This document shows positions 2,057 through 29,960 of a DNA stretch of 52,782 nt, piece after piece. The stretch is from the sequence record OM313460. One strand, given 5' to 3'. Origin of the DNA: Escherichia phage vB_EcoM_IntR. Position numbers and translations under genes: made by a program. The notes beneath the pieces were generated by a model. That model made no database searches. It worked only from the letters and a program-made list of their open reading frames with translations, and was not told where the DNA came from. How positions within the stretch are numbered: position 1 is the first letter of the stretch; every line of letters starts with the position of its first letter.

Positions 2057-2129
2057 GTTTCTCTCTCCTATTGATTGTGAATAATTTCAATCATGAACTA
2101 TCACAACTTTGGATAGTTCATTGTTGAAA

Positions 2130-2557: not shown

Positions 2558-2562
2558 TTTGA

Positions 2563-2721: not shown

Positions 2722-2785
2722 GTTTCTCTCCTGTTGATTGTGAATAACTTTCATTGATGGCACTACTTGAGTGCCATCTCAAAAA

Positions 2786-3355: not shown

Positions 3356-3450
3356 TTGATGTATCCTCGTTGATAGAATTTTTGATATGTGCCAATCCTT
3401 GGCAAGTAAGTCCAAACATGACAACTTTTGTCAAGTTGTCATGATTGAAA

Positions 3451-3753: not shown

Positions 3754-4125
3754 AATAGTTACCTTTGTACTAGTTTCCAGGTGTGACTACTGTTACCAAT
3801 AGTCACTAGTTGAAACTACTACTTGTGTTACTATCAACAAGAAACATGTTACCAAATTGTTAAAGAGCAAAAGGTACCATTGACATCTACCAGATGTACC
3901 TGTTGACTGGTTAAGTACTACCTACCTAATCTAAACCATACCAATATCCTTTAGACCAGTTAGACTGGTCACTCAGTCATCACATTCAATAAATATATAA
4001 TAGTCCAATCCCTCTTGATTGTACACCTTATATTTGTAAGTTTATGCAAGTTTTTAGAAATGATAATCACTTGCGATTGAGAGTGGTTCTCGTATGCTAT
4101 TGATATAGTTTCGCATGTAATTACT

Positions 4126-6972: not shown

Positions 6973-7262
6973 TGGACTTGTTCGATATGGTCGAACATCC
7001 TGAAGTAAACGGCTTGGCGGAAGCTAAGCCATTTAACTGGGATGAATTCGTAGCAGGCAAACCTGCTGTAACCCACAATGGGCAGATTGCATATTACGGA
7101 GGCCATAGCGAACATCCGATGTGCACTCACCTGTACAACGCTATCACAACCATAGCCGACGAAAACGTTATTAAATACGGAAAAGATGTAATGCCTTTTC
7201 TTGTAGATGAGCGCGGTTACTTCGAAGGTAAATGGTTCCCGTTTCTGGTAGAAATGGCCTAA
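6972..7262 (+). CDS. hypothetical protein
   Basis: 96-aa ORF, start overlaps upstream stop. Confidence 0.45.
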   Translation: MDLFDMVEHPEVNGLAEAKPFNWDEFVAGKPAVTHNGQIAYYGGHSEHPMCTHLYNAITTIADENVIKYGKDVMPFLVDERGYFEGKWFPFLVEMA

Positions 7263-7378
7263 AAACCGGATAAATATAAAGGCGTCTAAGTTAGTTCTTC
7301 ATCTATATAAGCTACTTATTCGCCTTTCTACTGTAGACTTTCTCATCATCTCTCTAGACACTTCATTTTTATATTCTG

Positions 7379-7407
7379 TTTACTTACTTCGCGTAACTCG
7401 TTATAAT
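7379..7407 (+). promoter_or_regulatory. sigma70-type promoter (TTTACT-N17-TATAAT)
   Basis: TTTACT 7379-7384, 17-bp spacer, TATAAT 7402-7407; upstream of the terminase genes. Confidence 0.55.
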
Positions 7408-7439
7408 CCCGACTATCCGGATTAACGAGGACGACACCC

Positions 7440-7730
7440 ATGGCAAAACCGAAAAAAACCCGTGAGGCAACAGAAGAACTGTTGGCCACGATGCGACGTA
7501 TCCAGCTGGACCCGTTGGAAGTTATGCAACGGGCTATCATACTTGCTGAACGTGAAGACGACTACAAAGCAATGATGGATGGTGCACTGGGCGTTATGCC
7601 GTACATGTATCCTAAGCTGAAAGAATCCGTTGTCAAAGCAGACATCGACCAGAACCTGTCTGGTAATGGTGTCAACCTGAACATTACAATAGGCGACCAG
7701 AAAGTGGTAGATACTACTGGGGAAGAGTAA
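7440..7730 (+). CDS. putative terminase small subunit
   Basis: 96-aa ORF immediately upstream of the large terminase, GAGGA RBS; assignment by position only. Confidence 0.4.
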   Translation: MAKPKKTREATEELLATMRRIQLDPLEVMQRAIILAEREDDYKAMMDGALGVMPYMYPKLKESVVKADIDQNLSGNGVNLNITIGDQKVVDTTGEE

Positions 7731-7733
7731 TAA

Positions 7734-9122
7734 ATGAATCTTGACTTTCACCTGCATGACAGACAAGGTGCCGCTCTGCGGTCTCAGGCAACTGAGATTC
7801 TGTACGGTGGTGCTGCTGGTGGTGGTAAGTCTCACCTTATGCGTGTAATGTCAATTATCATGTGTTGCATGATACCTGACTTGCAGATTTACCTTTTCCG
7901 CCGAAACTATAACGACCTTACGGCTAACCACATGGTTGGCCCCACAAGTTATCCTGCCTTGCTGGATGGTATGTGCAAAGCTGGCAAGTGCAAGATTAAC
8001 TACTCGAGCAACACTATCAAATTCTGGAACGGTGCAAACATCAAGCTCTGTCACCTCCAGTATGAAAAAGATATTTATACCTACCAGGGTGCGGAGATTC
8101 ACGTTCTGCTGATGGATGAGCTTACTCACTTCACAGAAACGATGTACCGCTTCTTGCGTAACCGTGTCCGACTCGGTGCTCTCAAAGTCCCTGAGAACTT
8201 TTTCCGGCCTCTGCCACTCATCTTTTGTGGGTCAAACCCCGGTGGTGTAGGTCACAACTGGGTTAAGCGTACTTTCGTAACTGCTGCTCCTCCGATGAAA
8301 ATCGTTAAGCAGGAAAAACGCGAAGGTGGTATGGCGCGTCAGTACATACCAGCTAAGATGACTGATAACCCTACGTTGATGGAAAACGACCCTGATTACG
8401 GCGACCGTCTTGAAGGTCTTGGTGACCCGGCGCTTGTTGCCGCGATGAAAGAAGGCGACTGGGATATTGTTGCAGGTGGTGCACTCGACGATGTATGGTC
8501 AACCAAGTGTATTCTGCCTCGTATGCGTATTCCAAAAGGCTGGACTATCGAACGTTCTCTTGACTGGGGTTCTACTCACCCGTTCTCTGTTGGTATCTGG
8601 GCTATTGCAAATGGCGCTTCGCTTACAGACGACGAAGGCAATGAGTACTTTATTCCACGTGGTTCCATTATACGTATAGCTGAATGGTATGGGTGCTCTG
8701 AAAAAGAAGCTAACAGGGGTATTAAACTTTCTGCTGCCGAAGTTGCTCAAGGTGTTATTCGTCTACAGGAAAATCTGCAGGCTGGTGGCTGGATTCAAAG
8801 CAACGTTAATCCTGGTCCGGCAGATAGTCAGATTTATGCGTGCAAGGAAAAAGACGTTGAGACTATCGCGAAGAAAATGGAAGACGAAGGCGTAACCTGG
8901 GTCAAGGCCGACAAGTCACAAGGTTCGAGAATAAATGGCTTAGAGCTATTCCGTCAGCTTCTGAAAAATGTTAAGATGGACGAAACGGAAAAGCCGGGCA
9001 TTTATTTTATGGAAAACTGTCCAGCAGCCATAAACACGTTGCCGGTTCTGCCGCGTGACAAGAACAACACGGAAGATGTCGACACGAACTCTGAAGACCA
9101 CGTATACGATGATTGTCGTTAG
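7734..9122 (+). CDS. terL: terminase large subunit
   Basis: Walker A YGGAAGGGKSHLM, Walker B LLMDELTH; followed by the portal gene. Confidence 0.85.
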   Translation: MNLDFHLHDRQGAALRSQATEILYGGAAGGGKSHLMRVMSIIMCCMIPDLQIYLFRRNYNDLTANHMVGPTSYPALLDGMCKAGKCKINYSSNTIKFWNGANIKLCHLQYEKDIYTYQGAEIHVLLMDELTHFTETMYRFLRNRVRLGALKVPENFFRPLPLIFCGSNPGGVGHNWVKRTFVTAAPPMKIVKQEKREGGMARQYIPAKMTDNPTLMENDPDYGDRLEGLGDPALVAAMKEGDWDIVAGGALDDVWSTKCILPRMRIPKGWTIERSLDWGSTHPFSVGIWAIANGASLTDDEGNEYFIPRGSIIRIAEWYGCSEKEANRGIKLSAAEVAQGVIRLQENLQAGGWIQSNVNPGPADSQIYACKEKDVETIAKKMEDEGVTWVKADKSQGSRINGLELFRQLLKNVKMDETEKPGIYFMENCPAAINTLPVLPRDKNNTEDVDTNSEDHVYDDCR

Positions 9123-12618: not shown

Positions 12619-12640
12619 CCCACAAACGGGACTAACAAAA

Positions 12641-12670
12641 GGCGAGCTGACGAGCTCGCCTTTTTTATTT
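12641..12670 (+). terminator. rho-independent terminator
   Basis: GGCGAGC...GCTCGCC stem followed by TTTTTTATTT. Confidence 0.75.
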
Positions 12671-12696
12671 ACACGTATAAAGTTCTGGTATATAAT
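12668..12696 (+). promoter_or_regulatory. sigma70-type promoter (TTTACA-N17-TATAAT)
   Basis: TTTACA 12668-12673, TATAAT 12691-12696; overlaps the terminator T-tract. Confidence 0.55.
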
Positions 12697-12722: not shown

Positions 12723-13223
12723 ATGGCATACACACTTGTTGTGGAAGACGGTTCAATCGTTCCGGGTGCTAACTCGTATGTTAGCGCTGCAGAAGTAGAT
12801 GAGTTTATCACTAACGAAGGTCTTCTCATTCAGCCAGGAACTGACCCGTACTACCAGGCTGCCAAAGCAGCTATTCGACTTGATAACCAGTTTAACTGGC
12901 TAGGCCGTAAGGTCAGCAAAACACAGAACATGGCTTGGCCCCGTACTGGCCTCGGTGCATGCAATGTTGACATCGCGGAGTCTGTAATTCCGCGAGAAGT
13001 TAAGCTGGCACAGCTTTATATGATGGCCAGTGTATTGAGCTATGACGGCGAAGAAGGTGTGCGTAGCGACCAGGCTTTGCGCCGTAAGAAAGTTGGTAAC
13101 CTGGAGATTGAATACTTCGACTCCAAATCAGGCGTTACCGGCGCAACTGACCTTTGGACGTCAGACGTCAAGGCCATGCTCAAGCACCTTGTGGGTGCAT
13201 CCCTGAGAACGCGGAGAGTATAA
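12723..13223 (+). CDS. head-tail connector / head completion protein (putative)
   Basis: 166-aa ORF right after the capsid gene, GGAGG RBS; assignment by position. Confidence 0.45.
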   Translation: MAYTLVVEDGSIVPGANSYVSAAEVDEFITNEGLLIQPGTDPYYQAAKAAIRLDNQFNWLGRKVSKTQNMAWPRTGLGACNVDIAESVIPREVKLAQLYMMASVLSYDGEEGVRSDQALRRKKVGNLEIEYFDSKSGVTGATDLWTSDVKAMLKHLVGASLRTRRV

Positions 13224-13711
13224 TGATTCGCATACGCCTTGAACGTCGCGACAAACAAAAGTTCGAGTTCACCTACCGTGCCTTTAAGTCGTTTGAAGGT
13301 CAAGGCGTATCAGTAGGTGTTCATCCAGAACACAACAGACGTGTAAACCCTAGAGATCGTATAACAAACGCTGAGCTTGCAATGGTGCATGAGTACGGTC
13401 TTAACGGTCTACCAGAACGAAGCTTTCTTCGTAGCGCTGTTGGTGGTAGGGGTAAAGGTCGACAGGCGATAAACAAAGCTTTCCGTGATAACGTGCCTGC
13501 CGTTCTTAGAGGAAGCATGACTGCCCATGAACTTAACGACAGAATAGGCCGTATGCTTGTCGATGCTGTTCACGACAGAATGGACAGTGATGTACCGCCT
13601 CCTAACACCGAGCTGACAGAAGAGCGCAAGCGCGGACCTGGTACGCTTAGAGAATCTATGCAGTTGTATGATTCGATAGGGTACAAGGTCGGCAGAAACT
13701 GGAGGCTATAA
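13223..13711 (+). CDS. neck / head-closure protein (putative)
   Basis: ATG at 13223 overlapping the upstream TAA, GGAGA RBS (ORF-track start 13154 is upstream and overlapping). Confidence 0.45.
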   Translation: MIRIRLERRDKQKFEFTYRAFKSFEGQGVSVGVHPEHNRRVNPRDRITNAELAMVHEYGLNGLPERSFLRSAVGGRGKGRQAINKAFRDNVPAVLRGSMTAHELNDRIGRMLVDAVHDRMDSDVPPPNTELTEERKRGPGTLRESMQLYDSIGYKVGRNWRL

Positions 13712-14088
13712 TGCTCAAGATAACTTCGCTAATGAAGGATAAAACCTTTGTAGCATTAACGGATGTTCTTCTCCGAAACGATTCGCGCTTACCAAATGGC
13801 GACTTCGAAGACGAATATACAGCTGCAAAGTATCTGTGTAACATTCAACCTGGTGCAGCTACCAACCAGCCTAACCTGTTGACTAAAGACGATGGCGAGC
13901 ATGAGTTCCCACGTATTGCGATATACAGTGGACAAGAGCTGAAGCTCGGAGACTTCGTTATATACGAAGACCAACCATACCGTGTATTCCGTATCGACCC
14001 ATGGAGTCGTCATGGCCACTACTACGTTACAGCAATTCTCCATAAAGGACCTCAGGGAGCTCGTTCAGAAGCTTTTACCATTACCTGA
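13711..14088 (+). CDS. neck / tail-completion protein (putative)
   Basis: ATG overlapping upstream stop, GGAGG RBS. Confidence 0.4.
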   Translation: MLKITSLMKDKTFVALTDVLLRNDSRLPNGDFEDEYTAAKYLCNIQPGAATNQPNLLTKDDGEHEFPRIAIYSGQELKLGDFVIYEDQPYRVFRIDPWSRHGHYYVTAILHKGPQGARSEAFTIT

Positions 14089-14539
14089 CGGGACATGTAT
14101 TATTGGTGAAGAGTCTGGTACAGTCGATGGTAGTCCGTATGTTTACTTGCGCCCTGGCGACGCATATGACTTCGGACCTCCTCGAACCAAACAAGGCGCT
14201 GACGGCTTTGAGTACGTCAGTAAACCTATGATGACATCTGTACGTATTACAGCTGTCGGTAAGAATGCTGCTGAGTTAATGCGTAAGCTACATATAGCAC
14301 TGGGTAGCTCACCAGCTAAGCAGTTTAACCGTTTACGGCATTATGCAATAACCAAAATATCGAAGATTGATAATGTCGGTGGTGCTATTGGTGCAGGCTA
14401 TGCGCAGAAATCAATGATGACTGTCGACATTAGCTATGTACATAAAGTTAAAATTGAGCAACCGTACATCTACAAGGTTGACATCACTTGTATGGATGAT
14501 AACGGTAACAAAGCGACTGGTACAGTAGAGGAACCGTAA
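14012..14539 (+). CDS. tail completion protein (putative)
   Basis: ATG at 14012 with GGAG RBS (ORF-track start 13982 is GTG); overlaps the previous ORF by 77 nt. Confidence 0.4.
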   Translation: MATTTLQQFSIKDLRELVQKLLPLPDGTCIIGEESGTVDGSPYVYLRPGDAYDFGPPRTKQGADGFEYVSKPMMTSVRITAVGKNAAELMRKLHIALGSSPAKQFNRLRHYAITKISKIDNVGGAIGAGYAQKSMMTVDISYVHKVKIEQPYIYKVDITCMDDNGNKATGTVEEP

Positions 14540-15162
14540 TGGCAACTGAAGTAGACCCGGAACTGCAAGCGCAGCTGGATAAGCTAACAACTGCTGTCCA
14601 GCTTATTCATGACTTCGGTATGTCAGACGACTCAAGCATCCCTAACCCGGAAGGCGGTGTCATACGCACACTCGAAGGCATTAACGCTGCAATCAATGAA
14701 GCTATACCAAATTTTGAAAATGCTAACGAAGCTGCTATACAGGCGCGTGCTGCTCGTGATGCGGCTATTGCAGCCAAAGAAGCTGCAGAAACCGCAGCTG
14801 AACAGGCCACAGTATCTTCTACGTCAGCAATCTATGAGTACGGCAACGTTGCAAGTGCAGCTACTGTAACTATACCTGCTGCATCTAAAACAATTGTCAG
14901 TCTTACTCTTAACCAGCCAAACACCGTAATTAATATCGGTGGTGTATCTGACCCGTCTACTGTTGCGCGTCAGATTACTATTGCTATTAAGCAAGGCACT
15001 GGTTCTAACAAGGTGACTGCCTGGGATCCCAGAATAAAATGGGCAAACAACAGAAAGCCCGTTCTGTCATTCCTTGTGGGTTACACAGATGTTGTTACGT
15101 TGCTTACATTTGACTCAGGAGCAACTTGGATGGGTTTCTTTAACGGTGGATGGATTAAATAA
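14539..15162 (+). CDS. virion structural protein (Ala-rich coiled region)
   Basis: 207-aa ORF, GAGGA RBS, start overlaps upstream stop. Confidence 0.4.
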   Translation: MATEVDPELQAQLDKLTTAVQLIHDFGMSDDSSIPNPEGGVIRTLEGINAAINEAIPNFENANEAAIQARAARDAAIAAKEAAETAAEQATVSSTSAIYEYGNVASAATVTIPAASKTIVSLTLNQPNTVINIGGVSDPSTVARQITIAIKQGTGSNKVTAWDPRIKWANNRKPVLSFLVGYTDVVTLLTFDSGATWMGFFNGGWIK

Positions 15163-18119
15163 TGCACACGATGTTGCTTAAAGACGGATCAGACCATCGA
15201 GCTAATGTCGAAAGCCTTATCGAAGGTCACCACCACTTTCTTGAGCGCAATACTGGTAGAACTGACGACGCTACGCGTCAGCACTATATCTTCAACCCAG
15301 AAGGAGTAGTGTCGAACAACCGCCATTTTATTGCGCACACTATGATGGAGTACCAACCTAACGGTGATGCTCCGTCTGAAAGTCAGTCGCTGCTGATACT
15401 CGGCGAAATTCACGCGTACCTTGCTACTAAGGAACAGCGGTATCTGGACAAAGCAATTGAGTACTTCAATGCTTACGTCAAATACTATTACGAGGGTGAC
15501 CCAATCCCTGATACTCCTCGTCGCTGGATCGCTAACTGGCTTTGTAATGGCAAAGAGCCTGTGCTAGCCAGCTTCCCGATCAACCCTGATTCACCAACAC
15601 AGGGTGGATATAAAAATGTGCCAGTTAAATTTGTTAACGGCAAAGCACAAATCCCTCATGGTTCTCCTTTCTGGGGCGAGTACCTGGATGTTGCTACTTG
15701 GGCCCACAGGGGACACATGGCATGGCCTGCTATTAATGGCGGGGTGCGTGTTATTAAAAATGAAGTTAACTGGGATGATATTTACAACAATTATCGCATC
15801 ACTACCATGCCAGCTGACCCATGGAATCAGTTAGCCTGGATTGACTGGCCGAGGTACCTCGGTGAGCCAAGCTACACTGTGGACTGGTCTGCTGCTGAAC
15901 CTCCTATACATCTCATCGAGTATATTGTTGCGTGGACCAATAACAAGATTGGTGTTCTACCTGGCAAAAACGATGAGCTATGGGGAGGCGAGATTCTTGA
16001 GACTGGACTGCCTGACTCTCGCAGGGGTGAGATTCAGCTTCGTGACCATACTATCAATGGTGTGTACCTGCTTAACTATGCTGTTAAGCTTCCTGTTGAA
16101 CACGGTGGTTATTTGCTCAAGCGAAATGAAGTATGGCACAACAGACCTGTGAACGTTCCACTGTACGGCGAGCTTCAGCGCGGTAATGCTGCTGATGCTG
16201 AGTTGTGGTTCTGTGACTGCTGCTATATGCTGTGGCGAATTACTAACGAGCAAAAGTATTACAACGCTTGGCAAGCTGTCCTGTTTACACTGGAGGAGTA
16301 TATTGACATCGATAAACAAGACCAGTTCTTCCGACAAGACACTCACGCGTCGTCTCCGTTTACTGATGGCATCTCTTATGATTGGTCTTATCCTGAACTG
16401 GCACAAGCTATATATTCACGTGATGAAAATGGTTATATAGTTCTACGTCAGAACGAAAAAGCTCAATCATCTCTGGAGCAGCAGGCTGTATGGTTTAAGT
16501 GTAAGCCAACAGCTAAGATACGTACAGAAGTTGGTGGCAAAGATGATGCTGGTCAGAATATCAGTGTCAAGGTGGAAATGTACATGAACCGTGAAAAGGT
16601 TGACGTCGAGCAAAACATCTATCGTTTTGTCACACAGCTACCTGCTCTTGGCGCTTCGCCTGCTAACTACGACATTCCGTTAAGCGATTTTGTCGCAGGT
16701 ACTAAGCCAGACGGTTCTGAGTATATCTTAGCTGATATTCGTTCATCCACTGATTATGGTAATGCCACTATTGCAGTGTCTTACCGTACTGACATACTCG
16801 ACAACAGACGTGGCAACACTGTTCGTATGACGATACCGGATAGTTCGTCAGGTGCCATTATAGGCTTTTGGCTACTGGAATCTTCCCAGGCACCTTTAAA
16901 CTCGCTGACGTATACTTCTACAGGTCCGTTGTACATCAAAGTAACTGACGCGCAAGGCTGGAGCTGGGTACGTGATTTACCTGCCGCATCAGGCTGGGTA
17001 ACTCAGCAGATTCGTACATGGGAGTTCAGGCTGGCGTCATACCAGGAAAACCCAGGTACACCACCAGCTAGCCCACAATTCGGCGAGATTAAGCAGTTCT
17101 CGTTTGTACTGCCTGACGGCGTTAATACGTCGACAAGTATTAGCTGGTACTGTGTGAATGATGTTCCGCCTCGCTATAACTGGCCAATTGGTTATACGAT
17201 TAAGTATCGTCTTACTTTCTCGGCTGATAACCCGTACACAGCTAAGCTTGGCGACTGTACTGTGCTGGACTATGAGAATGATAACCTTGCTTACACGCCA
17301 GGTGTTATTCCGTTCTCCAACATTTATAACCCTGATTCTAAGCAGTTCGATGGTTGGCACGGTATACCTTACCCTGGCTATCAGTATCCGTTTGTCTTTA
17401 CGCATGACGATACTGCAGCAGGTACAATCAGGCTGAACAACATGGTTAACTTTTTGTACGATTCTCAGCAATGGTACTATAAGAAGTTTGGTCAGCTAGG
17501 TCCTGGTGCATCTGCTTTTATCTGGAACCGTTGGGATAACTTTAAATACGGTGTACCTGATACGTTTACCATGTATCACTGGGGTAATGGTAGTGCATGG
17601 TCAGGTTACCAGCCTCGTGCTTATTTCTCCGCAGCACGTGGATGGTATGAGCTAGTAAACCGTGGTAAGCCGGTTCCGAGTAAGCTTATTGCTTACGTGG
17701 ATAACTGGTCAAAATGGTTGCTTGACTTCATGGAAAGGTCAGGAGGTGTGTCACCTTCTAACTTCCCGCAAGAAGGTGTTGCTCTGCCAGTCCCTTCAGA
17801 CTTCACAGGCCACATGTGTGGACTATGGCTTGCTGGTGCAGCTATGTCAGCCCTTTGTGGGTCAACAGTATCAGGACTTGATAAGCTGATGGATATGCTT
17901 GTCAATGAGCTAGAAGACCACTATGACATAACTGGTATTCCGGGACATGTAATGGATGGTGGTTGGTCGCCAGCGTTACGCCTTGAAACTGGTACCGGAC
18001 CTGAAAGCAACGCCATGTACTATGGTTTTTACTCTGGCGAAATATTACGAGGGCTGGGGTTATACTTACTGTACAAAAACAAAGGGGCTAAAGCAGATAT
18101 TTATGATTTAGGCCCGTAA
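15162..18119 (+). CDS. large virion-associated protein (985 aa), possible glycan-degrading enzyme
   Basis: Long uninterrupted ORF rich in Trp/Tyr; inserted between neck genes and the tail sheath gene. Confidence 0.5.
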   Translation: MHTMLLKDGSDHRANVESLIEGHHHFLERNTGRTDDATRQHYIFNPEGVVSNNRHFIAHTMMEYQPNGDAPSESQSLLILGEIHAYLATKEQRYLDKAIEYFNAYVKYYYEGDPIPDTPRRWIANWLCNGKEPVLASFPINPDSPTQGGYKNVPVKFVNGKAQIPHGSPFWGEYLDVATWAHRGHMAWPAINGGVRVIKNEVNWDDIYNNYRITTMPADPWNQLAWIDWPRYLGEPSYTVDWSAAEPPIHLIEYIVAWTNNKIGVLPGKNDELWGGEILETGLPDSRRGEIQLRDHTINGVYLLNYAVKLPVEHGGYLLKRNEVWHNRPVNVPLYGELQRGNAADAELWFCDCCYMLWRITNEQKYYNAWQAVLFTLEEYIDIDKQDQFFRQDTHASSPFTDGISYDWSYPELAQAIYSRDENGYIVLRQNEKAQSSLEQQAVWFKCKPTAKIRTEVGGKDDAGQNISVKVEMYMNREKVDVEQNIYRFVTQLPALGASPANYDIPLSDFVAGTKPDGSEYILADIRSSTDYGNATIAVSYRTDILDNRRGNTVRMTIPDSSSGAIIGFWLLESSQAPLNSLTYTSTGPLYIKVTDAQGWSWVRDLPAASGWVTQQIRTWEFRLASYQENPGTPPASPQFGEIKQFSFVLPDGVNTSTSISWYCVNDVPPRYNWPIGYTIKYRLTFSADNPYTAKLGDCTVLDYENDNLAYTPGVIPFSNIYNPDSKQFDGWHGIPYPGYQYPFVFTHDDTAAGTIRLNNMVNFLYDSQQWYYKKFGQLGPGASAFIWNRWDNFKYGVPDTFTMYHWGNGSAWSGYQPRAYFSAARGWYELVNRGKPVPSKLIAYVDNWSKWLLDFMERSGGVSPSNFPQEGVALPVPSDFTGHMCGLWLAGAAMSALCGSTVSGLDKLMDMLVNELEDHYDITGIPGHVMDGGWSPALRLETGTGPESNAMYYGFYSGEILRGLGLYLLYKNKGAKADIYDLGP

Positions 18120-18125
18120 CCACTA

Positions 18126-18154
18126 TTTACTTAACCGAGGCGCCAGCCTATAAT
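18126..18154 (+). promoter_or_regulatory. sigma70-type promoter with -10 inside an inverted repeat
   Basis: TTTACT 18126-18131, TATAAT 18149-18154; GCGCCAGC..GCTGGCGC inverted repeat spans the -10. Confidence 0.5.
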
Positions 18155-18186
18155 AAGCTGGCGCACCCAATAAGAGGATTCTCCAG

Positions 18187-18825
18187 ATGGCAAATCGTAC
18201 TACAGCCAACCGTCATATTGAAGACGCAGACCTGCGTCAAGAGTCGGTTACTCAGTTCCCGTTAGCCAAGCCGACCAAGCTTGATGAGAACGGAAAATTC
18301 ATTCCAACCCCAGTTACCGGTGTAACTGTTACCCCTAAAACTAAGTCAATTGCTGTTGGTGAGTTTACTACTCTGACAGCAGCAGTAGCCCCGGCAGACG
18401 CAGATGACGTCACTGTATTGTGGGAAAGCGATGCACCTGACAAAGCCACTGTTGATGGTTCAGGTCGTGTTCAGGGTATCAAAGTAGGTTCAGCAACTAT
18501 TACTGCTAAATCCAAGCTTGACCCTGCCAAAACCGATACCGTAGCAATTACGGTAACTGCTCCGCCTGTAGCCGTCACTGGTGTTACGTTAGCGCCTAAG
18601 TCGCCCAGCGTTGTAGTAGGCTCTACTGTACAGCTGACTGCAACTGTGCTGCCTGCTGGCGCTACTAACAAAGCTGTTACCTACGAGTCCAATGACACGG
18701 CTAAAGCTACTGTTAGCGCTACCGGTCTGGTGACTGGTAAAGCAGCTGGCGTCGTCACCATCACTGTCAAAACAGCTGATGGCAGCTTCACTGACACCGC
18801 GTCAGTAACTGTTACTGCCGAGTAA
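18187..18825 (+). CDS. bacterial Ig-like (BIG2-type) domain protein
   Basis: Two Thr/Val-rich repeats of the pattern VTGVT...ATVD..G.V.G...G.ATIT..T.DG. Confidence 0.6.
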   Translation: MANRTTANRHIEDADLRQESVTQFPLAKPTKLDENGKFIPTPVTGVTVTPKTKSIAVGEFTTLTAAVAPADADDVTVLWESDAPDKATVDGSGRVQGIKVGSATITAKSKLDPAKTDTVAITVTAPPVAVTGVTLAPKSPSVVVGSTVQLTATVLPAGATNKAVTYESNDTAKATVSATGLVTGKAAGVVTITVKTADGSFTDTASVTVTAE

Positions 18826-18836
18826 GGAGCTGATTG

Positions 18837-20966
18837 ATGTCGCTTCCACTTGATGAGGTTGTCGACGTCCAGTTCAGTAAGAGCAACGGGGGTAAAGGTT
18901 TTACCCCCAATGTTCCGCTGGAAGGCATAATGCTTTACAACTACGAGTACTCAATCGTTGCGGATGATGACCCTGTTCAGCTAGCTGTGCTCTACATTCC
19001 AACCAACGCTACGGAGCGTGGTATGGTATGGGAATCTAGCGACTCAGACGTTATCACCGTTGATGAGCTCGGATTTGCAAAGCCGCTGGCGGAAGGTGTT
19101 GCATACGTGACTGGTACGTCTGTTGATGGCGGTTATACTGTACGAGCAAAGTTCAATGTTGCTCGAGCACCTATCCTTGTTGAATCTGTTACAGTGTCTC
19201 CCACAAGCGTGACACTTGAAGAGGGTAAGACTCAACGTCTGACATACACCTATTTACCTGCTAATGCAGACAAACCTGATTTTTACTGGATTTCAGATGA
19301 CGAGGCTGTTGCTGTCGTTAGTGACAGCGGGCTTGTCACTGCCATTGGAGACGGTGAAACAACTGTAAGCGTACAGTACGGTATTGACAGTACTATATCT
19401 GATAGCTGTATCGTAACTGTTATTCCACCTATTGTACACGTTACAGGAGTTGAGTTTCTTACTCAGTCACCTCTTAACATTAATATCGGAAGCACAACTG
19501 AGACGAGTATTCGTGTATCGCCAGAAGACGCCACTGACAAAACAGTGACGTACGAAAGCAGTGCGACTGATGTAGTAACTGTAGATACTGACGGAAATGT
19601 TACGGGTGTTATAGCTGGCAATGCCACTATTACTGTTAAGACGAATGATGGTGATAAGACTGACACTCTTGATATTATAGTCAAGGAGGCTGTCGTAAAT
19701 GTTACCGGTGTAAGTATTGATGAAGGCGCTACAGCTTCCATGGAAGTTGGAGACACTCTTCAGTTGCATGCTACTGTGACTCCTGAAAATGCTACTGACC
19801 CGTCTGTTGTGTGGGATGCTCCTACATCAGCAGTTGCGACTGTTACTAAAGCTGGTTTGGTAACCGCTAATGAAGTAGGTTCAATTAATGTTACTGTTAC
19901 CACTAATGACGGTGGCTTTACCGATAGCATTGAGGTTAAAGTTACAGACCCTAGCATCGCAGTTACAGACGTTGCATGGGCTTCTGACTCTCCGACTAAA
20001 GTGAGTGCTGGCCATCAGGTGCAAACTAAAATTGTTATAACACCTGAAAAAGCAACCAATAAAAAAGTCAGTTACAACAGCTCAAACCCAGACGCTGTTA
20101 CTGTTGACACTGATGGAGTTATATACGGTCAATCTCCTGGAACTTCAACTATTACAGTTACAACAGACGACGGTGGACTTACTGCTTCGTTTATAGCTAC
20201 TTGCACAGAAGTGGCTGTTATTACACCTGACGGTCTTGGCGGTATTCCAATCGGTGGCACCCAGCAGTTCACTTATACTGTTAGCCCGTCTGATGCTGAG
20301 CTAACTGATATTCGTTACGAATCTGCTAACCCAGCTATTGCAACTGTTGATTCGTCTGGCGTTGTAACTGGTGTTGCTAGCGGCGGATGTAATATCTGGA
20401 TTTACGCAACTAGTAATGGTGCGGACATTAGCTCAGCTACTTGGGCACAAATTTCTGAGAGGGTTCAGGTATACCCGCAGTATGCTGAATGGCTTGTGGG
20501 TAACAACAAACAGCTTGATGTTGAGATTTATCCATCGGACTCTAAGAGCGTTACCGTTACTTATAGCTCGTCAGATGATTCTGTAATTAGCATAGATGCA
20601 AATGGCTTGATGACTGCTAAGTCTGAAGGTTCAGCAACTATTACTGCTAACGTTGTAATGAACGGTGTTGCTGCTTCTGGTACAACATCTCCTTACGTGT
20701 CTGAGCTTTCTGTTACTACTGATTCGCTGCCTGCACTTACTGTTGGCAACACGCAGCAGCTGGTTGTAACTGTTAGACCTGAATACGCTAAGACAGACCC
20801 AGGCTATAACATTCAGTATACAACTACAGACGATACTGTCGCTACTGTAAGTAATACCGGTGTTATTACTGGCGTTGGTAACGGTGGATGCCGTATTGGT
20901 GCCACAGTAACTGTGAGAAATGCTACAGCGTCGGACAGCTCTTATCAGTCCGTTGATGCAGCATAA
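18837..20966 (+). CDS. multi-domain Ig-like (BIG2-type) repeat protein
   Basis: ATG at 18837 with AAGGAG RBS (18834 is TTG); about seven tandem Ig-like repeats. Confidence 0.6.
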   Translation: MSLPLDEVVDVQFSKSNGGKGFTPNVPLEGIMLYNYEYSIVADDDPVQLAVLYIPTNATERGMVWESSDSDVITVDELGFAKPLAEGVAYVTGTSVDGGYTVRAKFNVARAPILVESVTVSPTSVTLEEGKTQRLTYTYLPANADKPDFYWISDDEAVAVVSDSGLVTAIGDGETTVSVQYGIDSTISDSCIVTVIPPIVHVTGVEFLTQSPLNINIGSTTETSIRVSPEDATDKTVTYESSATDVVTVDTDGNVTGVIAGNATITVKTNDGDKTDTLDIIVKEAVVNVTGVSIDEGATASMEVGDTLQLHATVTPENATDPSVVWDAPTSAVATVTKAGLVTANEVGSINVTVTTNDGGFTDSIEVKVTDPSIAVTDVAWASDSPTKVSAGHQVQTKIVITPEKATNKKVSYNSSNPDAVTVDTDGVIYGQSPGTSTITVTTDDGGLTASFIATCTEVAVITPDGLGGIPIGGTQQFTYTVSPSDAELTDIRYESANPAIATVDSSGVVTGVASGGCNIWIYATSNGADISSATWAQISERVQVYPQYAEWLVGNNKQLDVEIYPSDSKSVTVTYSSSDDSVISIDANGLMTAKSEGSATITANVVMNGVAASGTTSPYVSELSVTTDSLPALTVGNTQQLVVTVRPEYAKTDPGYNIQYTTTDDTVATVSNTGVITGVGNGGCRIGATVTVRNATASDSSYQSVDAA

Positions 20967-20991
20967 AAATTAATTAACTTTGCACTGGCCA

Positions 20992-21020
20992 TTTACTTGG
21001 TTAAACTTACTGAGTATAAT
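20992..21020 (+). promoter_or_regulatory. sigma70-type promoter (TTTACT-N17-TATAAT)
   Basis: TTTACT 20992-20997, TATAAT 21015-21020. Confidence 0.55.
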
Positions 21021-21052
21021 GGCCGGAAAGTCCACCCAAGAGGTAAACAAAA

Positions 21053-22192
21053 ATGCCGTTGAATGTAAACCAGATTGTAAACGTTCAACTGAACAACACT
21101 CCAACTGGTATCAGCAAAGGTGACTTCGGTAAGCTGGCTCTTTTAACTCAGGACCCTGGCACTGCTTTTCCTGACAGCGACAACGGACACTATGTTGAAA
21201 TCGGCAGCTACTCTGAAGCCGAGTCTTATTGGGGTGCTGGTTCAGTTGTGCTTGGCGCGTTGAAGATTTTCTTTGCACAATCTCCGCGTCCTCGTTCAGT
21301 AGTTATCGCCTCATGGAACAACACCTCTACTCTGGATGCGGCTATTAAAGCATTCAACGATGTGTACCCTGACTGGTATGTTCTGCGTCCGCTTCCACCT
21401 ACTGGTGAGCTGTCTGACGATGACATCAGTTTGCTGGCGTCAACTGTTGCTGCTTACGATAAAAAACGTTGCAGCTATACAACCACTAAAGCAACTCATA
21501 TTGAAAACAGCGACTCCAACCCGATTAAAGTTCTGGCTGGTAAAGGCTACAACAATATGTGGCTTCAGTATGATAAGAACAACCAACACTATGCAGACAT
21601 TTCTGCTATGGCGCGTGCTCTGTCCGTTAACTTCTCTGGTAACCGCACCACGATTACCATGAAGTTCAAACAAGAGCCTGGCATTACACCGAACAACACT
21701 TTAACGCTTACTGAAGCTAACAAGTGTAAAGCGCTGGGTATTAACTGGTACACCTACTACAGCACCTTTGCTATGCTTGCTGAGGGTACTGTTCTCGGTA
21801 CGTCCAAACCGCCTCGCTTCTGGGATGAAGTACACGGCCTAGACTGGTTCTGTAATGCAGTTCAGACTTACGTCTTCAACTCAATCGCTACGTCACCCAC
21901 GAAGGTGCCGCAGACGAACAAAGGTCACGAGCGCCTTACCGGTGCTGCAGCTGTTGCTTGTCAGCAGGCTGTCGACAACGGCTTGGTTGCACCTGGTATC
22001 TGGTACGGTGATGAGTTTGGTACACTGTCTTATGGTGACCGACTCGAGACAGGTTTCTACATCTACATCCCTGACGTAGATGACCAGCCTCTGGATGAGC
22101 GTGAAGCTCGTCAGGCCGTTGTAATGCAAATCGCGATTAAGCTGGCAGGTGCAATCCATTCCAGCGACATCCTGATTAACTTCACTCGCTAA
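21053..22192 (+). CDS. tail sheath protein (P2 FI / Mu L-like size class)
   Basis: 379-aa ORF followed by tube, chaperone and tape-measure genes; AGAGG RBS. Confidence 0.5.
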   Translation: MPLNVNQIVNVQLNNTPTGISKGDFGKLALLTQDPGTAFPDSDNGHYVEIGSYSEAESYWGAGSVVLGALKIFFAQSPRPRSVVIASWNNTSTLDAAIKAFNDVYPDWYVLRPLPPTGELSDDDISLLASTVAAYDKKRCSYTTTKATHIENSDSNPIKVLAGKGYNNMWLQYDKNNQHYADISAMARALSVNFSGNRTTITMKFKQEPGITPNNTLTLTEANKCKALGINWYTYYSTFAMLAEGTVLGTSKPPRFWDEVHGLDWFCNAVQTYVFNSIATSPTKVPQTNKGHERLTGAAAVACQQAVDNGLVAPGIWYGDEFGTLSYGDRLETGFYIYIPDVDDQPLDEREARQAVVMQIAIKLAGAIHSSDILINFTR

Positions 22193-22203: not shown

Positions 22204-22635
22204 ATGATCATCGATTCTTCTGAATGCGTGTTGAGCCTGAATGGTGTTCAGCTGTCCGACTGGGCAGACGGTGCCGATGTCATTGACGTGCAATGGGTGG
22301 ACCCAGCTTCCACCTATCTTGCAGGTGCTGATGGCGGTGGTATCCAGATTATGAACCCGTCCAAAGCCATTAAGCTGACTATCAAAGTTAAGCAAAGTGG
22401 TCCGGACGCCAAATGGCTTAACGACCAGTACAACCTGCAGCGTAACAACATTCGTGGATTCGTCCCGTTTGTGCTGCAAGCCAAAGACCTGCTAAACCAG
22501 GATTTGGCATGGGGTAAAAAAGGTTACTTTACCGATGGTTCCCCGTGGACTCGTGGTAACGGCCATAACCCGACTACCTTCTCTATTGTGTTCCACCAAG
22601 GTGGTATGCAGTTGACTGAAGGCTTTGACCAGTAA
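22204..22635 (+). CDS. tail tube protein
   Basis: 143-aa ORF between sheath and chaperone genes; AAGGAG RBS. Confidence 0.5.
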   Translation: MIIDSSECVLSLNGVQLSDWADGADVIDVQWVDPASTYLAGADGGGIQIMNPSKAIKLTIKVKQSGPDAKWLNDQYNLQRNNIRGFVPFVLQAKDLLNQDLAWGKKGYFTDGSPWTRGNGHNPTTFSIVFHQGGMQLTEGFDQ

Positions 22636-27770: not shown

Positions 27771-28142
27771 ATGCGAACTAGACGACTTGATTCAAACTGG
27801 GACTGGAATTTTGGGCGTGGACGACTTGACTACGCCGAGACATCTGAGTCCATTGAACAACGCATCGTGCAGATACTCCGCTGCTATACCATGGACTGGG
27901 TACATGACCTGGACTATGGCATTGATTGGTTCGGACTAATGGAGAAGCCTGTTCGATGGGCTGACCTGGAGGCTGCAATCAAAACAGCAATACTTGCGGA
28001 GTATGGAGTTAGTTCTATCGAGAGCTTTACCCTAAGCTTCGACCCTGACTCACGTCACGCTGTTTATTCGGTTGAGGTTAATGATATTTACCACAACACA
28101 ACCTCTATTAACAGAAGTATTAATTTAACCGGAGAAAACTGA
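27771..28142 (+). CDS. baseplate wedge protein (gp25/W-like)
   Basis: 123-aa ORF upstream of the J-like gene; size and position match gp25/W. Confidence 0.5.
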   Translation: MRTRRLDSNWDWNFGRGRLDYAETSESIEQRIVQILRCYTMDWVHDLDYGIDWFGLMEKPVRWADLEAAIKTAILAEYGVSSIESFTLSFDPDSRHAVYSVEVNDIYHNTTSINRSINLTGEN

Positions 28143-29314: not shown

Positions 29315-29960
29315 ATATCATAAACTACTTATTCAGCAGTACGCTGATAAGCCAAAAGCTGTTGCAACTATTCAAGGCTTCGATGATGCTATTCAAGGCA
29401 TCTGGGATGGTGCCCAGCAAGTTGTTGATAGTCTTAATATTGATAAAGCTTTCGGTAAAGGTCTTGATAATGTTGCAGCCCGAGTTGGTGCCTCACGTGC
29501 TCTTAAAAAAGGCGTAGACCGTAAGTTCTTCGGCTTTACCAATAAAGTACCAGACGTGCTTGGCTTCGGCGGTTCGTCTGGTAATAAAGGCGGTCCGTTC
29601 TACCGTTACGGTGCATCAGTATGGGACCCGGTAATTCTTGATGATATTGACTTGCGTACTTACATCAAGATGAAAATCTGGAAGAACATGCAAGACGGTA
29701 CTATGCCGTATTTAATTGACTTCCTGATTGAATTCTTCGGAATGAATAACTTCGTTATAACTGACAACGAAGATATGACAATGACTCTGGAGATATACAG
29801 TACTCTGACTCCGCTTAAGCAAGTGTTGATTCAGAACTACGATATTCTTCCGCGCCCCACAGGGGTGAAGATTGAACTTAATACGAGCGTTGACGTTACA
29901 GATAGCCTGTACCGTTATGCTACTGTAAACTTACCAGCACAGGTGAATGTATATGGCTGA
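29307..29960 (+). CDS. baseplate/tail protein (Mu gp48 / P2 I-like position)
   Basis: 217-aa ORF overlapping the J-like gene end. Confidence 0.45.
   Translation: MAEYHKLLIQQYADKPKAVATIQGFDDAIQGIWDGAQQVVDSLNIDKAFGKGLDNVAARVGASRALKKGVDRKFFGFTNKVPDVLGFGGSSGNKGGPFYRYGASVWDPVILDDIDLRTYIKMKIWKNMQDGTMPYLIDFLIEFFGMNNFVITDNEDMTMTLEIYSTLTPLKQVLIQNYDILPRPTGVKIELNTSVDVTDSLYRYATVNLPAQVNVYG

What the first reader, a model, noticed from the sequence alone, without database searches (positions are those of the whole stretch)
14539..20966. ~6.4-kb accessory insertion between neck genes and the tail sheath: a 985-aa protein plus two Ig-like repeat proteins
In the otherwise Mu/P2-like order (capsid, four small neck/completion genes, sheath, tube, chaperone, tape measure, baseplate), four extra genes sit between tail completion and sheath. 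The 985-aa protein is Trp/Tyr-rich, which may fit a polysaccharide-degrading enzyme. It is followed, behind its own promoter at 18126-18154, by a 212-aa and a 709-aa protein built of BIG2-like repeats. This looks like an acquired host-surface recognition or depolymerase module, possibly neck- or sheath-associated.
Basis: inference. Interest (0 to 1): 0.65.

Follow-up and report, generated by a model that had tools for sequence, protein, structure and literature searches.

The report
Tail glycosidase, adaptor and Ig-repeat genes
Between the neck and sheath genes of this Rosemountvirus-type phage lie four virion-protein genes (a small adaptor, a large sugar-cleaving enzyme of the phi92 gp141 family, and two chains of Ig-like domains) that most likely help the phage bind and cut through a host surface polysaccharide, possibly cellulose; the block is real but already present and partly described in many related phages.

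Summary
Four co-oriented genes (207, 985, 212 and 709 aa) lie between the neck terminator and the sheath gene. The 985-aa protein is Trp/Tyr-rich. A consensus-like promoter lies at 18126-18154. The last two proteins consist of 2 and 8 Big_2 domains.

The window is a Rosemountvirus (99.3% to phage PiR), and every relative examined carries the block. Virion proteomics in two related phages detected the homologues.

The 207-aa protein is an adaptor. Its C-terminal domain is encoded directly upstream of the large gene in seven unrelated phage lineages.

Fusions and synteny elsewhere place the enzyme at the distal tail, not the neck.

Host cellulose genes are needed by Rosemountvirus SPLA2 (enzyme 98.8% identical) and by Erwinia phage M7 (homologue present). 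This suggests cellulose as substrate, but it is not proven.

Verdict: a real, ordinary accessory module of a known kind, with a testable substrate hypothesis.

The parts
13982..14539 (+). Neck/tail terminator gene (context; upstream boundary of the block)
   Evidence: PF23961 Phage_tail_terminator_9, E 6e-17; phrog_6920 and phrog_7975. BP63 annotates a start about 30 nt further downstream.
14539..15162 (+). 207-aa adaptor protein (phi92 gp140-like): lineage-specific N-terminus, Ala-rich long helix (residues 59-97), conserved C-terminal beta-sandwich (residues ~97-207, nt 14827-15159)
15162..18119 (+). 985-aa tail glycosidase of the phi92 gp141 family: discontinuous (alpha/alpha)6 barrel (residues 1-135, 335-400, 705-985) with two beta-rich insertions
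15372..15389 (+). Motif PSESQS (family consensus TTEGQS, residues 71-76) containing invariant Glu73 (nt 15378-15380), the candidate general acid
   Evidence: E73 is invariant in 70 of 70 sequences. Best local profile match to BcsZ 53-TSEGQS-58. S6 gp094 (GH48) has Glu155 in VSETAS, which PMC9544554 names as the proton donor.
16185..16202 (+). Motif NAADAE (residues 342-347) with invariant Asp345 and Glu347, the candidate catalytic base or sugar-distorting Asp
   Evidence: 70 of 70 conserved. Aligns with GH48 S6 gp094 NAPDAE and with the GH8 BcsZ SASDGD signature.
15567..16163 (+). Beta-rich insertion 1 (residues 136-334) in a barrel loop; contains a strain-variable patch at residues 200-249
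   Evidence: Secondary structure of the model. The hhalign match to BcsZ runs across the splice junction. 11 of the 31 SPLA2/SPLA11 differences fall at residues 200-249.
16362..17273 (+). Beta-rich insertion 2 (residues 401-704), beta-sandwich; probably carbohydrate-binding-module-like
   Evidence: Model. Foldseek partial matches to CBM11 (6r31, 1v0a; probability 1.0, 156-184 columns), but the query region aligned was not reported, so assigning them to this insertion is inference.
18126..18154 (+). Promoter-like site TTTACT-17-TATAAT upstream of the Ig genes
   Evidence: Annotated as a promoter in BP63 and S144. Boxes conserved in fHy-Eco03. Similar sites at 12668-12696 and 20992-21020.
18140..18164 (+). 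8-bp inverted repeat GCGCCAGC/GCTGGCGC bracketing the -10 box
   Evidence: predicted dG -16.8 kcal/mol. The stem is kept in fHy-Eco03 through two compensatory double changes.
18187..18825 (+). 212-aa protein: ~40-aa N-terminus plus two Big_2 Ig-like domains
   Evidence: PF02368, E 2e-36. The S144 homologue gp18 was found in virions with 80% peptide coverage. fHy-Eco03 gp30 is marked MS-verified.
18837..20966 (+). 709-aa protein made of eight tandem Big_2 Ig-like domains; the most variable virion protein of the genus
   Evidence: PF02368, E 8e-94, 8 stretches. phrog_28902, 1476 bits. fHy-Eco03 gp31 is marked MS-verified. 91% identical to SPLA2; SPLA11 lacks one 87-aa repeat.
20992..21020 (+). 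Promoter-like site upstream of the sheath gene (downstream boundary)
   Evidence: conserved in fHy-Eco03.
21053..22192 (+). Tail sheath gene (context)
   Evidence: DUF3383, E 4e-72; phrog_205.

Best explanation
The block encodes a virion-borne accessory apparatus for dealing with host surface polysaccharide. It has three parts.

(1) The 207-aa protein is an adaptor. Its lineage-specific N-terminus and Ala-rich helix anchor it to the particle. Its conserved C-terminal beta-sandwich docks the large protein.

(2) The 985-aa protein is a phi92 gp141-family glycoside hydrolase. It is an (alpha/alpha)6 barrel of the GH8/GH48 (clan GH-M) type, with Glu73 as general acid and Asp345 as base or helper. 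Two beta-sandwich insertions probably bind carbohydrate.

(3) The 212-aa and 709-aa proteins are chains of 2 and 8 Big_2 Ig-like domains. They add weak, multivalent adhesion to glycans, either as a flexible fibre associated with the enzyme or as a particle decoration.

The enzyme most probably sits at the distal (baseplate) end of the tail. It binds and cleaves a chemically conserved beta-linked exopolysaccharide, with phosphoethanolamine-cellulose as the leading candidate. That would let the Mu gpS-like tail fibre (29947-31287) reach LPS.

Shown here: the gene content, the fold on a predicted model, conservation of candidate catalytic residues, the adaptor-enzyme gene pairing, and virion presence in relatives.

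Inferred: catalysis, substrate, stoichiometry, the attachment site, and the role of the Ig chains.

For: Catalytic motifs: E73, D345 and E347 are invariant in 70 sequences. Invariant residues are 2.5-fold enriched in the barrel segments (p = 1e-4). The best local profile matches to BcsZ are its two GH8 signature motifs, in order. Five motifs are collinear with GH48 S6 gp094.

Virion presence: S144 gp16, gp17 and gp18 were detected by ESI-MS/MS. fHy-Eco03 gp28-gp31 are all marked LC-MS/MS verified.

Distal-tail attachment elsewhere: fusion to P2 gpI within a W-J-I cluster; an HP1-like prophage with the order J-I-adaptor-enzyme-fibre; phi92-like and rV5-like baseplate loci; the T7-like fibre position; gpJ-type and Tal-type fusions.

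Ig link: homologues of ~1690 aa carry Big_2 tails, and distant ones carry Big_5.

Cellulose: bcs genes are susceptibility genes for Rosemountvirus SPLA2 (PMC10949491), whose enzyme is 98.8% identical to the window's. Kolesnikvirus M7 is reported as cellulose-dependent (PMC13101476) and encodes the adaptor-enzyme pair. The precedent is phage S6, which has a predicted GH48 and a verified GH5 cellulase (PMC9544554).
Against: There is no biochemical evidence for any member of the family. The fold evidence rests on a predicted structure. I could not inspect coordinates, so the spatial proximity of E73 and D345 and the presence of a pocket are unverified.

Sequence-level links to GH8 and GH48 are individually non-significant (E 0.05-0.7). 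No Pfam GH model matches, even after removing the insertions.

Substrate: S144 (sister genus) resistant mutants lack O-antigen. SPLA11 (same genus, enzyme 97% identical) was assigned to LPS. For phiEa21-4, LPS and OmpA are proposed as receptors, with release of amylovoran/HexNAc fragments. rV5-like and phi92-like phages carrying homologues infect E. coli K-12, where bcsQ is annotated as a pseudogene; from my own knowledge, K-12 therefore makes no cellulose. Those phages depend on ECA there.

The SPLA2 dependence could act through the tail fibre or the BcsC porin rather than through this enzyme.

The position of the proteins on this phage's particle is unknown, and the S144 MS table lacks the large Ig protein.
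Confidence: 0.62

Rival explanations
1. The enzyme is real, but its substrate is not cellulose. It may cleave or bind another host glycan, such as enterobacterial common antigen, an LPS-linked or O-antigen-associated polysaccharide, PNAG or another beta-glycan. In that case the cellulose dependence of SPLA2 and M7 arises from other components.
Against: Homologues at 45-50% identity occur in Pseudomonas and Acinetobacter genomes and in Stenotrophomonas, Aeromonas and Vibrio phages. From my own knowledge, these hosts lack ECA and share no O-antigen. Such conservation fits a chemically invariant substrate. Two independent cellulose-dependent phages carry the family. The closest motif matches are to cellulase families GH48 and GH8.
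Confidence: 0.3
2. The 985-aa protein is a non-catalytic receptor-binding or structural protein that keeps a glycosidase fold only as a carbohydrate-binding scaffold.
For: No activity has been shown for any family member. The catalytic base could not be assigned with confidence. There is no significant sequence match to any curated GH family. The S144 authors found no tailspike-like or fibre-like Phyre2 model.
Against: Glu73 and Asp345/Glu347 are invariant across 70 sequences down to 45% identity. They lie in motifs collinear with the GH8 and GH48 catalytic motifs. Invariant residues are enriched in the barrel. HHpred hydrolase hints were reported independently for S144 ORF17.
Confidence: 0.12
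3. One reading: the module forms neck or collar fibres, or sheath-associated appendages, because its genes lie between the neck terminator and the sheath gene.
For: Gene position. The adaptor N-terminus is lineage-specific and unrelated to any other protein of the window, so its docking site is unknown. For the Ig proteins, a decoration role on sheath or capsid is plausible: the S144 gp18 homologue had the highest peptide coverage of all virion proteins, and the Ig genes have a separate promoter next to the sheath gene.
Against: In all other lineages the adaptor-enzyme pair lies in baseplate or fibre loci, or the enzyme is fused to distal tail proteins. The adaptor's C-terminal domain resembles baseplate or tailspike attachment modules.
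Confidence: 0.15
4. The block is a recently acquired mobile cassette (a moron-like insertion) specific to this phage.
For: It is absent between the terminator and sheath genes of the distant relative Aaphi23. The enzyme module is clearly portable between very different phages.
Against: It is present with the same order and boundaries in BP63, SPLA2, SPLA11, S144 and fHy-Eco03. Forty-three records cover at least 80% of the region at DNA level. Its GC content is indistinguishable from the late region. No flanking repeats or integrase-like genes were seen.
Confidence: 0.05

Closest known systems
Phage phi92 gp140/gp141 (part of the multivalent adsorption apparatus; homologues in rV5-like, PVP-SE1-like and Seoulvirus phages)
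   Same: Full-length homology of the 985-aa protein: 42% identity to the Justusliebigvirus alia protein, and the S144 record names gp141. The same small upstream partner gene is present, annotated 'Phi92_gp140' in SPFM11. A review lists gp141 as a putative glycosidase (PMC5380687).
   Different: In phi92-like and rV5-like phages the pair lies inside the baseplate/lateral-fibre locus and is followed by a Calx-beta plus TIM-barrel protein or a long fibre gene. Here it lies between the neck and sheath genes and is followed by two Big_2 proteins. The adaptor N-termini are unrelated.
Erwinia phage S6 gp094 (predicted GH48) and gp095 (GH5 cellulase), used for cellulose-dependent infection
   Same: Virion-associated (alpha/alpha)6-barrel enzyme of clan GH-M. 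Collinear motifs: acid Glu, NAxDAE, DK(F/Y)FRQ, WxG(Y/F)Q, (D/E)FTGxM. Host cellulose genes are needed by a close relative of this phage.
   Different: There is no significant overall sequence similarity. S6 is an N4-like podophage. Its gp094 matches GH48 directly and has a Calx-beta N-terminus, no beta-sandwich insertions in the barrel and no gp140-like adaptor.
GH8 endoglucanases such as E. coli BcsZ and C. thermocellum CelA
   Different: No Pfam PF01270 match. The barrel is interrupted by about 500 residues of beta insertions. The catalytic base position is unresolved. The protein is a virion component of 985 aa, not a ~350-aa periplasmic or secreted enzyme.
Adaptor/branching systems for phage tailspikes (T4 gp10-like domains of CBA120 TSP4; anchor-branch receptor-binding-protein systems of Klebsiella and K1-5/SP6-type phages)
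   Different: The scores are moderate and there is no sequence similarity. The docked enzyme is an alpha/alpha barrel, not a trimeric beta-helix.
Ig-like (Big_2) domains on phage structural proteins (T4 Hoc-type decoration; C-terminal Big_2 of siphophage major tail proteins)
   Same: Clear Big_2 membership. Virion-associated in relatives. Copy number varies between strains.
   Different: Here the domains are free-standing proteins made almost entirely of Ig repeats (2 and 8). They are not appended to a capsid or tube protein. The 'major tail protein' label in GenBank and PHROGs is a domain-level carry-over; the real tube protein is at 22204-22635.

Membership tests
phi92 gp141-like tail protein family (PHROG 2871) | Full-length sequence homology to family members | tested here: met
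   phrog_2871 E 0, 1423 bits. tblastn: 520 phage records cover at least 80% of the query. 373 clusters at 50% identity in 1.84 billion representatives. The S144 record names gp141.
phi92 gp141-like tail protein family (PHROG 2871) | gp140-like partner gene directly upstream | tested here: met
   The C-terminal HMM of the 207-aa protein hits the upstream gene in alia, navn, phiR8-01, phiEa21-4, SPFM11, a Pseudomonas prophage and fHy-Eco03.
phi92 gp141-like tail protein family (PHROG 2871) | Component of the mature virion | not testable with these tools
   Not testable for this phage. Homologues were detected by MS in S144 and are marked as such in the fHy-Eco03 record.
Glycoside hydrolase family 8 (clan GH-M) | (alpha/alpha)6 barrel fold | tested here: met
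Glycoside hydrolase family 8 (clan GH-M) | Sequence membership (Pfam PF01270 Glyco_hydro_8) | tested here: not met
   No Pfam hit for the full protein or the barrel-only construct at E up to 10. No PDB GH8 hit with the family profile.
Glycoside hydrolase family 8 (clan GH-M) | Catalytic Glu in a (T/S)SEGQ-type motif and the Asp-rich signature | tested here: inconclusive
   The two best local hhalign matches to a BcsZ profile are exactly these motifs in order, but with E 0.048 and 0.65. The residues are invariant in the family.
Glycoside hydrolase family 8 (clan GH-M) | Hydrolysis of beta-1,4-linked glycans | not testable with these tools
   Needs an enzyme assay.
Glycoside hydrolase family 48 (clan GH-M) | (alpha/alpha)6 barrel fold | tested here: met
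Glycoside hydrolase family 48 (clan GH-M) | Sequence membership (a Pfam GH48 model, or significant similarity to a GH48 enzyme) | tested here: not met
   No Pfam hit. The family HMM against S6 gp094 gives E 0.16.
Glycoside hydrolase family 48 (clan GH-M) | Conserved catalytic acid Glu and base Asp motifs | tested here: inconclusive
   Five collinear motif matches to S6 gp094, each individually non-significant. PMC9544554 names Glu155 and Asp331 for gp094. Position 155 is Glu in my translation, but position 331 is Asn, so I take the base to be D334 in the same NAPDAE motif.
Classical tailspike depolymerase (trimeric right-handed beta-helix) | Parallel beta-helix catalytic domain | tested here: not met
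Big_2 bacterial Ig-like domain proteins (PF02368) | Match above the Pfam gathering score | tested here: met
   212-aa protein: 124 bits. 709-aa protein: 308 bits in 8 stretches. Cut-off 22.8.
T4 gp10-like / CBA120 TSP4-type attachment domain | Structural similarity of the docking domain | tested here: inconclusive
T4 gp10-like / CBA120 TSP4-type attachment domain | Physical binding of a partner spike or enzyme | not testable with these tools
   Supported only indirectly, by strict gene adjacency in seven lineages.

The most novel reading that the evidence does not exclude
The phi92 gp141-like proteins are an unclassified, sequence-isolated family of clan GH-M glycoside hydrolases that act as virion-borne cellulases or cellulose-binding enzymes. 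With their gp140-like adaptor they would make bacterial (phosphoethanolamine-)cellulose a primary receptor, or a penetrable matrix, for many unrelated phages of Gram-negative bacteria: Rosemountvirus, Kolesnikvirus, rV5-like and phi92-like phages, jumbo Seoulvirus, T7-like podophages and P2/HP1-like prophages. This would explain why this part of the 'Swiss-army-knife' fibre loci is so conserved.
Probability: 0.3. Interest if true: 0.6.

Novelty: new member of a known kind. Interest (0 to 1): 0.4.

Why it matters
The block itself is ordinary: a conserved, already annotated set of tail-associated genes in a well-sampled phage genus.

What the analysis adds is a concrete, testable function for a protein family found in about 1% of sequenced phages (532 of 50,697 records) that has no curated family, no solved structure and no known substrate.

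If the family is a virion-borne cellulase or cellulose binder, three things would follow:
- It would explain the cellulose-gene dependence seen in Salmonella (SPLA2) and Erwinia (M7) screens.
- It would identify the function of a conserved element of the rV5 and phi92 fibre loci that the BASEL authors called unclear.
- It would provide biofilm-matrix-degrading enzymes and a portable adaptor-enzyme pair for phage engineering.

Tried and rejected
- **Curated families for the 207-aa and 985-aa proteins:** Pfam, NCBIfam and PDB sequence searches found nothing, even with a family profile and with the beta insertions spliced out.
- **Global hhalign to a BcsZ profile:** failed. Only local motif matches were obtained, none individually significant.
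- **Direct homology to S6 gp094 (GH48), gp095, gp096 or gp097:** not significant.
- **SD286 'gp38' paper on a Rosemountvirus receptor-binding protein:** it concerns a 123-aa protein, which by its size I take to be the baseplate protein at 27771-28142. It is not part of this block.
- **Programmed frameshift joining the 212-aa and 709-aa ORFs:** rejected. They are in different frames, separated by a stop codon, with an AAGGAG 7 nt before the ATG at 18837.
- **DNA-level tandem repeats in the Ig genes:** none.
- **A shared N-terminal anchor between the 207-aa protein and other proteins of the window:** none.
- **Recent horizontal acquisition:** rejected on conservation and GC content.
- **Attributing the SPLA2/SPLA11 receptor difference to one gene:** not possible, because the enzyme, the Ig protein and the fibre all differ.
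- **Schwarzer et al. 2012 (phi92):** not held in the library.


Full report
**1. Observation**

The window carries four co-oriented ORFs at the stated place: 14539-15162 (207 aa), 15162-18119 (985 aa), 18187-18825 (212 aa) and 18834/18837-20966 (710/709 aa). The ATG at 18837 lies 7 nt after an AAGGAG and right after the stop codon of the previous gene, so 709 aa is the likely product and the two Ig genes are separate.

Upstream is a neck terminator (PF23961) preceded by adaptor and Neck1 genes. Downstream are the sheath (DUF3383), the tube, a chaperone-sized ORF, the tape measure and the baseplate. The regular tail fibre is elsewhere: a 446-aa protein at 29947-31287 with two chaperone-sized ORFs after it.

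The 985-aa protein has 3.7% Trp and 6.5% Tyr, above the other virion proteins. Pfam finds 2 and 8 Big_2 domains in the last two proteins. The promoter-like TTTACT-17-TATAAT at 18126-18154 is present, and similar sites lie in the gaps before the neck genes (12668-12696) and before the sheath gene (20992-21020). The scan as a whole finds no more sites than in shuffled sequence, so position and conservation carry the argument, not statistics.

**2. What phage this is, and how old the block is**

The region is 99.3% identical to Escherichia phage vB_EcoM_PiR and about 95-96% identical to BP63, swi3, SPLA2 and many other Rosemountvirus records. Forty-three records cover at least 80% of it.

The same four genes in the same order occur in BP63, SPLA2 and SPLA11, the sister genus Loughboroughvirus (S144) and the more distant fHy-Eco03. 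In Aaphi23, a distant relative that shares the neck gene set, the sheath gene follows the terminator homologue directly.

The block's GC content (46.6%) equals that of the late region (47.2%). It is therefore an addition to a simpler ancestral layout, but an old one that is fixed in this group.

**3. The 985-aa protein**

It matches PHROG 2871 ('tail protein') almost end to end. It has no Pfam, NCBIfam or PDB sequence match, even with a 70-sequence profile.

Homologues are unusually conserved for a host-recognition protein: 45-50% identity over the full length in proteins from Acinetobacter, Pseudomonas and Brenneria genomes. By tblastn, 532 phage records carry it. These include rV5-like (29%), phi92-like (42%), jumbo Seoulvirus (47%) and Erwinia Kolesnikvirus (45%) phages, T7-like podophages, and Vibrio, Aeromonas and Stenotrophomonas phages. 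An exhaustive HMMER search finds 373 clusters at 50% identity, with no tail into the very large cellular GH families.

The S144 record states that its homologue matches phi92 gp141. A review lists gp141 as a putative glycosidase.

**4. Fold and candidate catalytic residues**

An AlphaFold model built on the alignment is confident (pLDDT 90.1, pTM 0.86). Helical segments at residues 13-109, 344-386 and 743-974 are separated by two beta-rich regions.

Foldseek adds partial matches to CBM11-type beta-sandwiches. I attribute these to the insertions by inference, because the aligned query region was not reported.

Invariant residues are 2.5-fold enriched in the barrel segments (p = 1e-4). A barrel-only profile was compared with a BcsZ (GH8) profile built from E. 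coli bcsZ and its homologues. The two best local matches were:
- phage 71-TTEGQS-76 against BcsZ 53-TSEGQS-58; this stretch contains Glu55, which from my own knowledge of the BcsZ literature is the catalytic acid
- phage GNAADAE against the BcsZ SASDGD signature; this alignment runs across the spliced-out insertion

Against the GH48 enzyme gp094 of phage S6, five motifs match in the same order: the acid Glu, NAxDAE, DK(F/Y)FRQ, WxG(Y/F)Q and (D/E)FTGxM. The commentary on S6 names the Glu (155) as proton donor and an Asp it numbers 331 as base. Position 331 is Asn in my translation, so I take the base to be D334, three residues on in the same NAPDAE motif.

Glu73, Asp345 and Glu347 are invariant in all 70 sequences. 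None of these sequence matches is significant alone (E 0.05-0.7), and I could not inspect the model coordinates. The conclusion 'clan GH-M-like hydrolase with Glu73 as acid and Asp345 as base or helper' is therefore well supported at the fold level and only suggestive at the residue level. It is not a beta-helix tailspike.

**5. The 207-aa protein is the enzyme's adaptor**

Its alignment shows a conserved N-terminal part, an Ala-rich helix and a strongly conserved C-terminal domain. The model gives a long helix at residues 59-97 and a confident beta-sandwich at residues 100-207.

An HMM of the C-terminal domain hits the gene directly upstream of the large gene in seven lineages:
- phi92-like alia
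- rV5-like navn
- T7-like phiR8-01
- Kolesnikvirus phiEa21-4
- jumbo SPFM11, where the gene is annotated 'Phi92_gp140'
- a Pseudomonas HP1-like prophage
- fHy-Eco03

E-values run from 1e-25 to 4e-56. The N-terminal HMM hits only fHy-Eco03.

**6. The Ig proteins**

The 212-aa protein is about 40 residues plus two Big_2 domains. The 709-aa protein is eight Big_2 domains.

They are the fastest-changing virion proteins in the genus. The 709-aa protein is 91% identical to SPLA2's, against 95-99% for the other virion proteins. SPLA11 lacks exactly one 87-aa repeat. S144's homologue has 624 aa, and fHy-Eco03's small one has a single Big_2 domain.

Some homologues of the enzyme (~1690 aa) carry Big_2 tails at their C-terminus, and distant ones carry Big_5. 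This links Ig arrays to the enzyme functionally. The similarity is at domain level only. The 'major tail protein' labels in databases are a carry-over from Big_2 domains of siphophage tube proteins.

**7. Virion presence**

In S144, ESI-MS/MS of purified particles found gp16 (21 kDa), gp17 (111 kDa, 25 peptides) and gp18 (22 kDa, 80% coverage, the highest in the table). ORF19, the large Ig protein, is not listed. The fHy-Eco03 record marks gp28-gp31, all four homologues, as LC-MS/MS-verified virion proteins. This phage itself is untested.

**8. Where on the particle**

Gene position suggests the neck or sheath, but every lineage in which attachment can be inferred points to the distal tail:
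- fusion of the enzyme to the P2 wedge protein gpI, after the gpW and gpJ genes
- the order J-I-adaptor-enzyme-fibre in an HP1-like prophage
- position inside the baseplate/lateral-fibre loci of phi92-like and rV5-like phages
- the fibre position of a T7-like phage
- position after the Felix O1-type fibre genes of phiEa21-4
- fusions to a lambda gpJ-type domain, a Tal-type N-terminus and a podophage fibre-tail adaptor domain

I therefore consider a baseplate-peripheral location most likely for the adaptor-enzyme pair. I leave the location of the Ig proteins open; the high MS coverage of the small one would also fit a decoration protein.

**9. Substrate**

Three published results bear on it.

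- **SPLA2.** In a TraDIS screen of S. [quoted passage not shown] SPLA2's enzyme is 98.8% identical to the window's. From my own knowledge of the bcs locus, these genes lie in two divergent operons, which would argue for the polymer rather than a polar effect on the porin. That is inference.
- **M7.** Erwinia Kolesnikvirus M7 is reported as cellulose-dependent. It encodes the adaptor-enzyme pair.
- **S6.** Phage S6 needs cellulose and carries a predicted GH48 and a verified GH5 cellulase.

A chemically invariant substrate would also explain why the family is so conserved across hosts that share neither O-antigen nor ECA.

Against this:
- S144's resistant mutants lack O-antigen.
- SPLA11 was assigned to LPS.
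- phiEa21-4 is reported to use LPS and OmpA, with a virion glycosidase activity that releases amylovoran/HexNAc fragments.
- rV5-like and phi92-like phages with homologues infect E. coli K-12 and depend on ECA there. In K-12, bcsQ is annotated as a pseudogene; from my own knowledge, K-12 therefore makes no cellulose.

The enzyme may thus be an accessory that matters only when the matrix polymer is made, or its substrate may be different. I put cellulose at roughly one in three.

**10. Regulation, seen in passing**

The -10 box of the 18126-18154 site lies in the loop of a perfect 8-bp inverted repeat (18140-18164). In fHy-Eco03 both promoter boxes are conserved, and the stem is maintained by two compensatory double changes. 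This suggests a selected stem-loop or a symmetric operator.

**11. Comparison with what is known, and novelty**

The block is a member of a known kind: a virion-associated polysaccharide-active enzyme with a separate adaptor, plus Ig-domain structural proteins. It is already present, annotated and partly discussed in the literature. The S144 paper describes 'four tail proteins' and reports an HHpred hydrolase hint for ORF17, and phi92 gp141 is listed as a 'glycosidase'.

New here are:
- the assignment of the fold to clan GH-M, with named candidate catalytic residues
- the recognition of the upstream gene as a conserved adaptor across seven lineages
- the argument for a distal-tail location
- the link between this family and two independent cellulose-dependence phenotypes

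All four are inferences awaiting experiment.

**12. Limits**

- The fold evidence rests on predicted structures.
- The residue-level matches are sub-significant.
- The virion data come from relatives.
- Phenotype-to-gene links are correlative.
- The Schwarzer et al. 2012 phi92 paper could not be read.

Noticed in passing
window 18140-18164 (within the intergenic region 18120-18186): A perfect 8-bp inverted repeat GCGCCAGC...GCTGGCGC encloses the -10 TATAAT of the promoter-like site (predicted hairpin dG -16.8 kcal/mol, no U-run after it). In the divergent relative fHy-Eco03 the stem is preserved by two compensatory double changes (GTGCCTGC...GCAGGCAC). It may be an RNA stability or processing hairpin, or an operator.
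   Followed up: partly
whole window (52782 bases): The window has exactly the record length of Escherichia phage swi3 (MT768059, 52782 bp) and matches it at identical coordinates (14000-21500; 13982-14536), yet is only ~95-96% identical. Its closest relative PiR (99.3%) likewise shares length and coordinates with JEP7 (52936 bp). This suggests reference-guided assemblies in this genus, so indels and ends of such records should be treated with caution.
   Followed up: no
window 18837-20966; L012 (SPLA11) 1888-3756; L015 (S144) 7208-9082; L004 (fHy-Eco03) 13207-13638: Ig-repeat copy number varies between close relatives. SPLA11 lacks exactly one 87-aa Big_2 repeat of the large protein (622 against 709 aa). 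S144 has 624 aa. The fHy-Eco03 small Ig protein has one Big_2 instead of two. The large Ig protein is the least conserved virion protein (91% to SPLA2).
   Followed up: partly
window 15759-15908 (residues 200-249 of the 985-aa protein): 11 of the 31 amino-acid differences between the SPLA2 and SPLA11 enzymes cluster in this 50-residue stretch of beta-insertion 1. This is a possible specificity-determining surface patch on an otherwise very conserved protein.
   Followed up: no
window 12637-12696: A strong terminator-like hairpin (12 pairs followed by a T-run) directly after the major capsid gene is followed at once by the best promoter-like site of the region (TTTACA-17-TATAAT, 11 of 12). The late region therefore appears to be divided into units at 12.6, 18.1 and 21.0 kb.
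   Followed up: no
window 13711-14088 and 13982-14539: The 125-aa 'head protein' ORF and the terminator ORF overlap by up to 107 nt. The terminator start is uncertain: GTG at 13982 here, while BP63 annotates a start about 30 nt further downstream.
   Followed up: no
GenBank records BEC1-17 (MN158218) and swi3 (MT768059), region homologous to window 14000-21500: Genes of this block are annotated there as '1,4-alpha-glucan branching enzyme' and 'diguanylate cyclase/phosphodiesterase (GGDEF & EAL domains)'. No family search here supports either name. They look like automatic mis-annotations.
   Followed up: no
L002 (phage alia) 11871-14030; protein P0119: In phi92-like phages the gene after the enzyme encodes a Calx-beta plus 'non-contractile tail sheath' N-domain plus TIM-barrel protein (PF23844/PF23845). 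The same two domains are fused to the C-terminus of the enzyme in P0119. This is a second recurrent partner of the family, of unknown role.
   Followed up: partly
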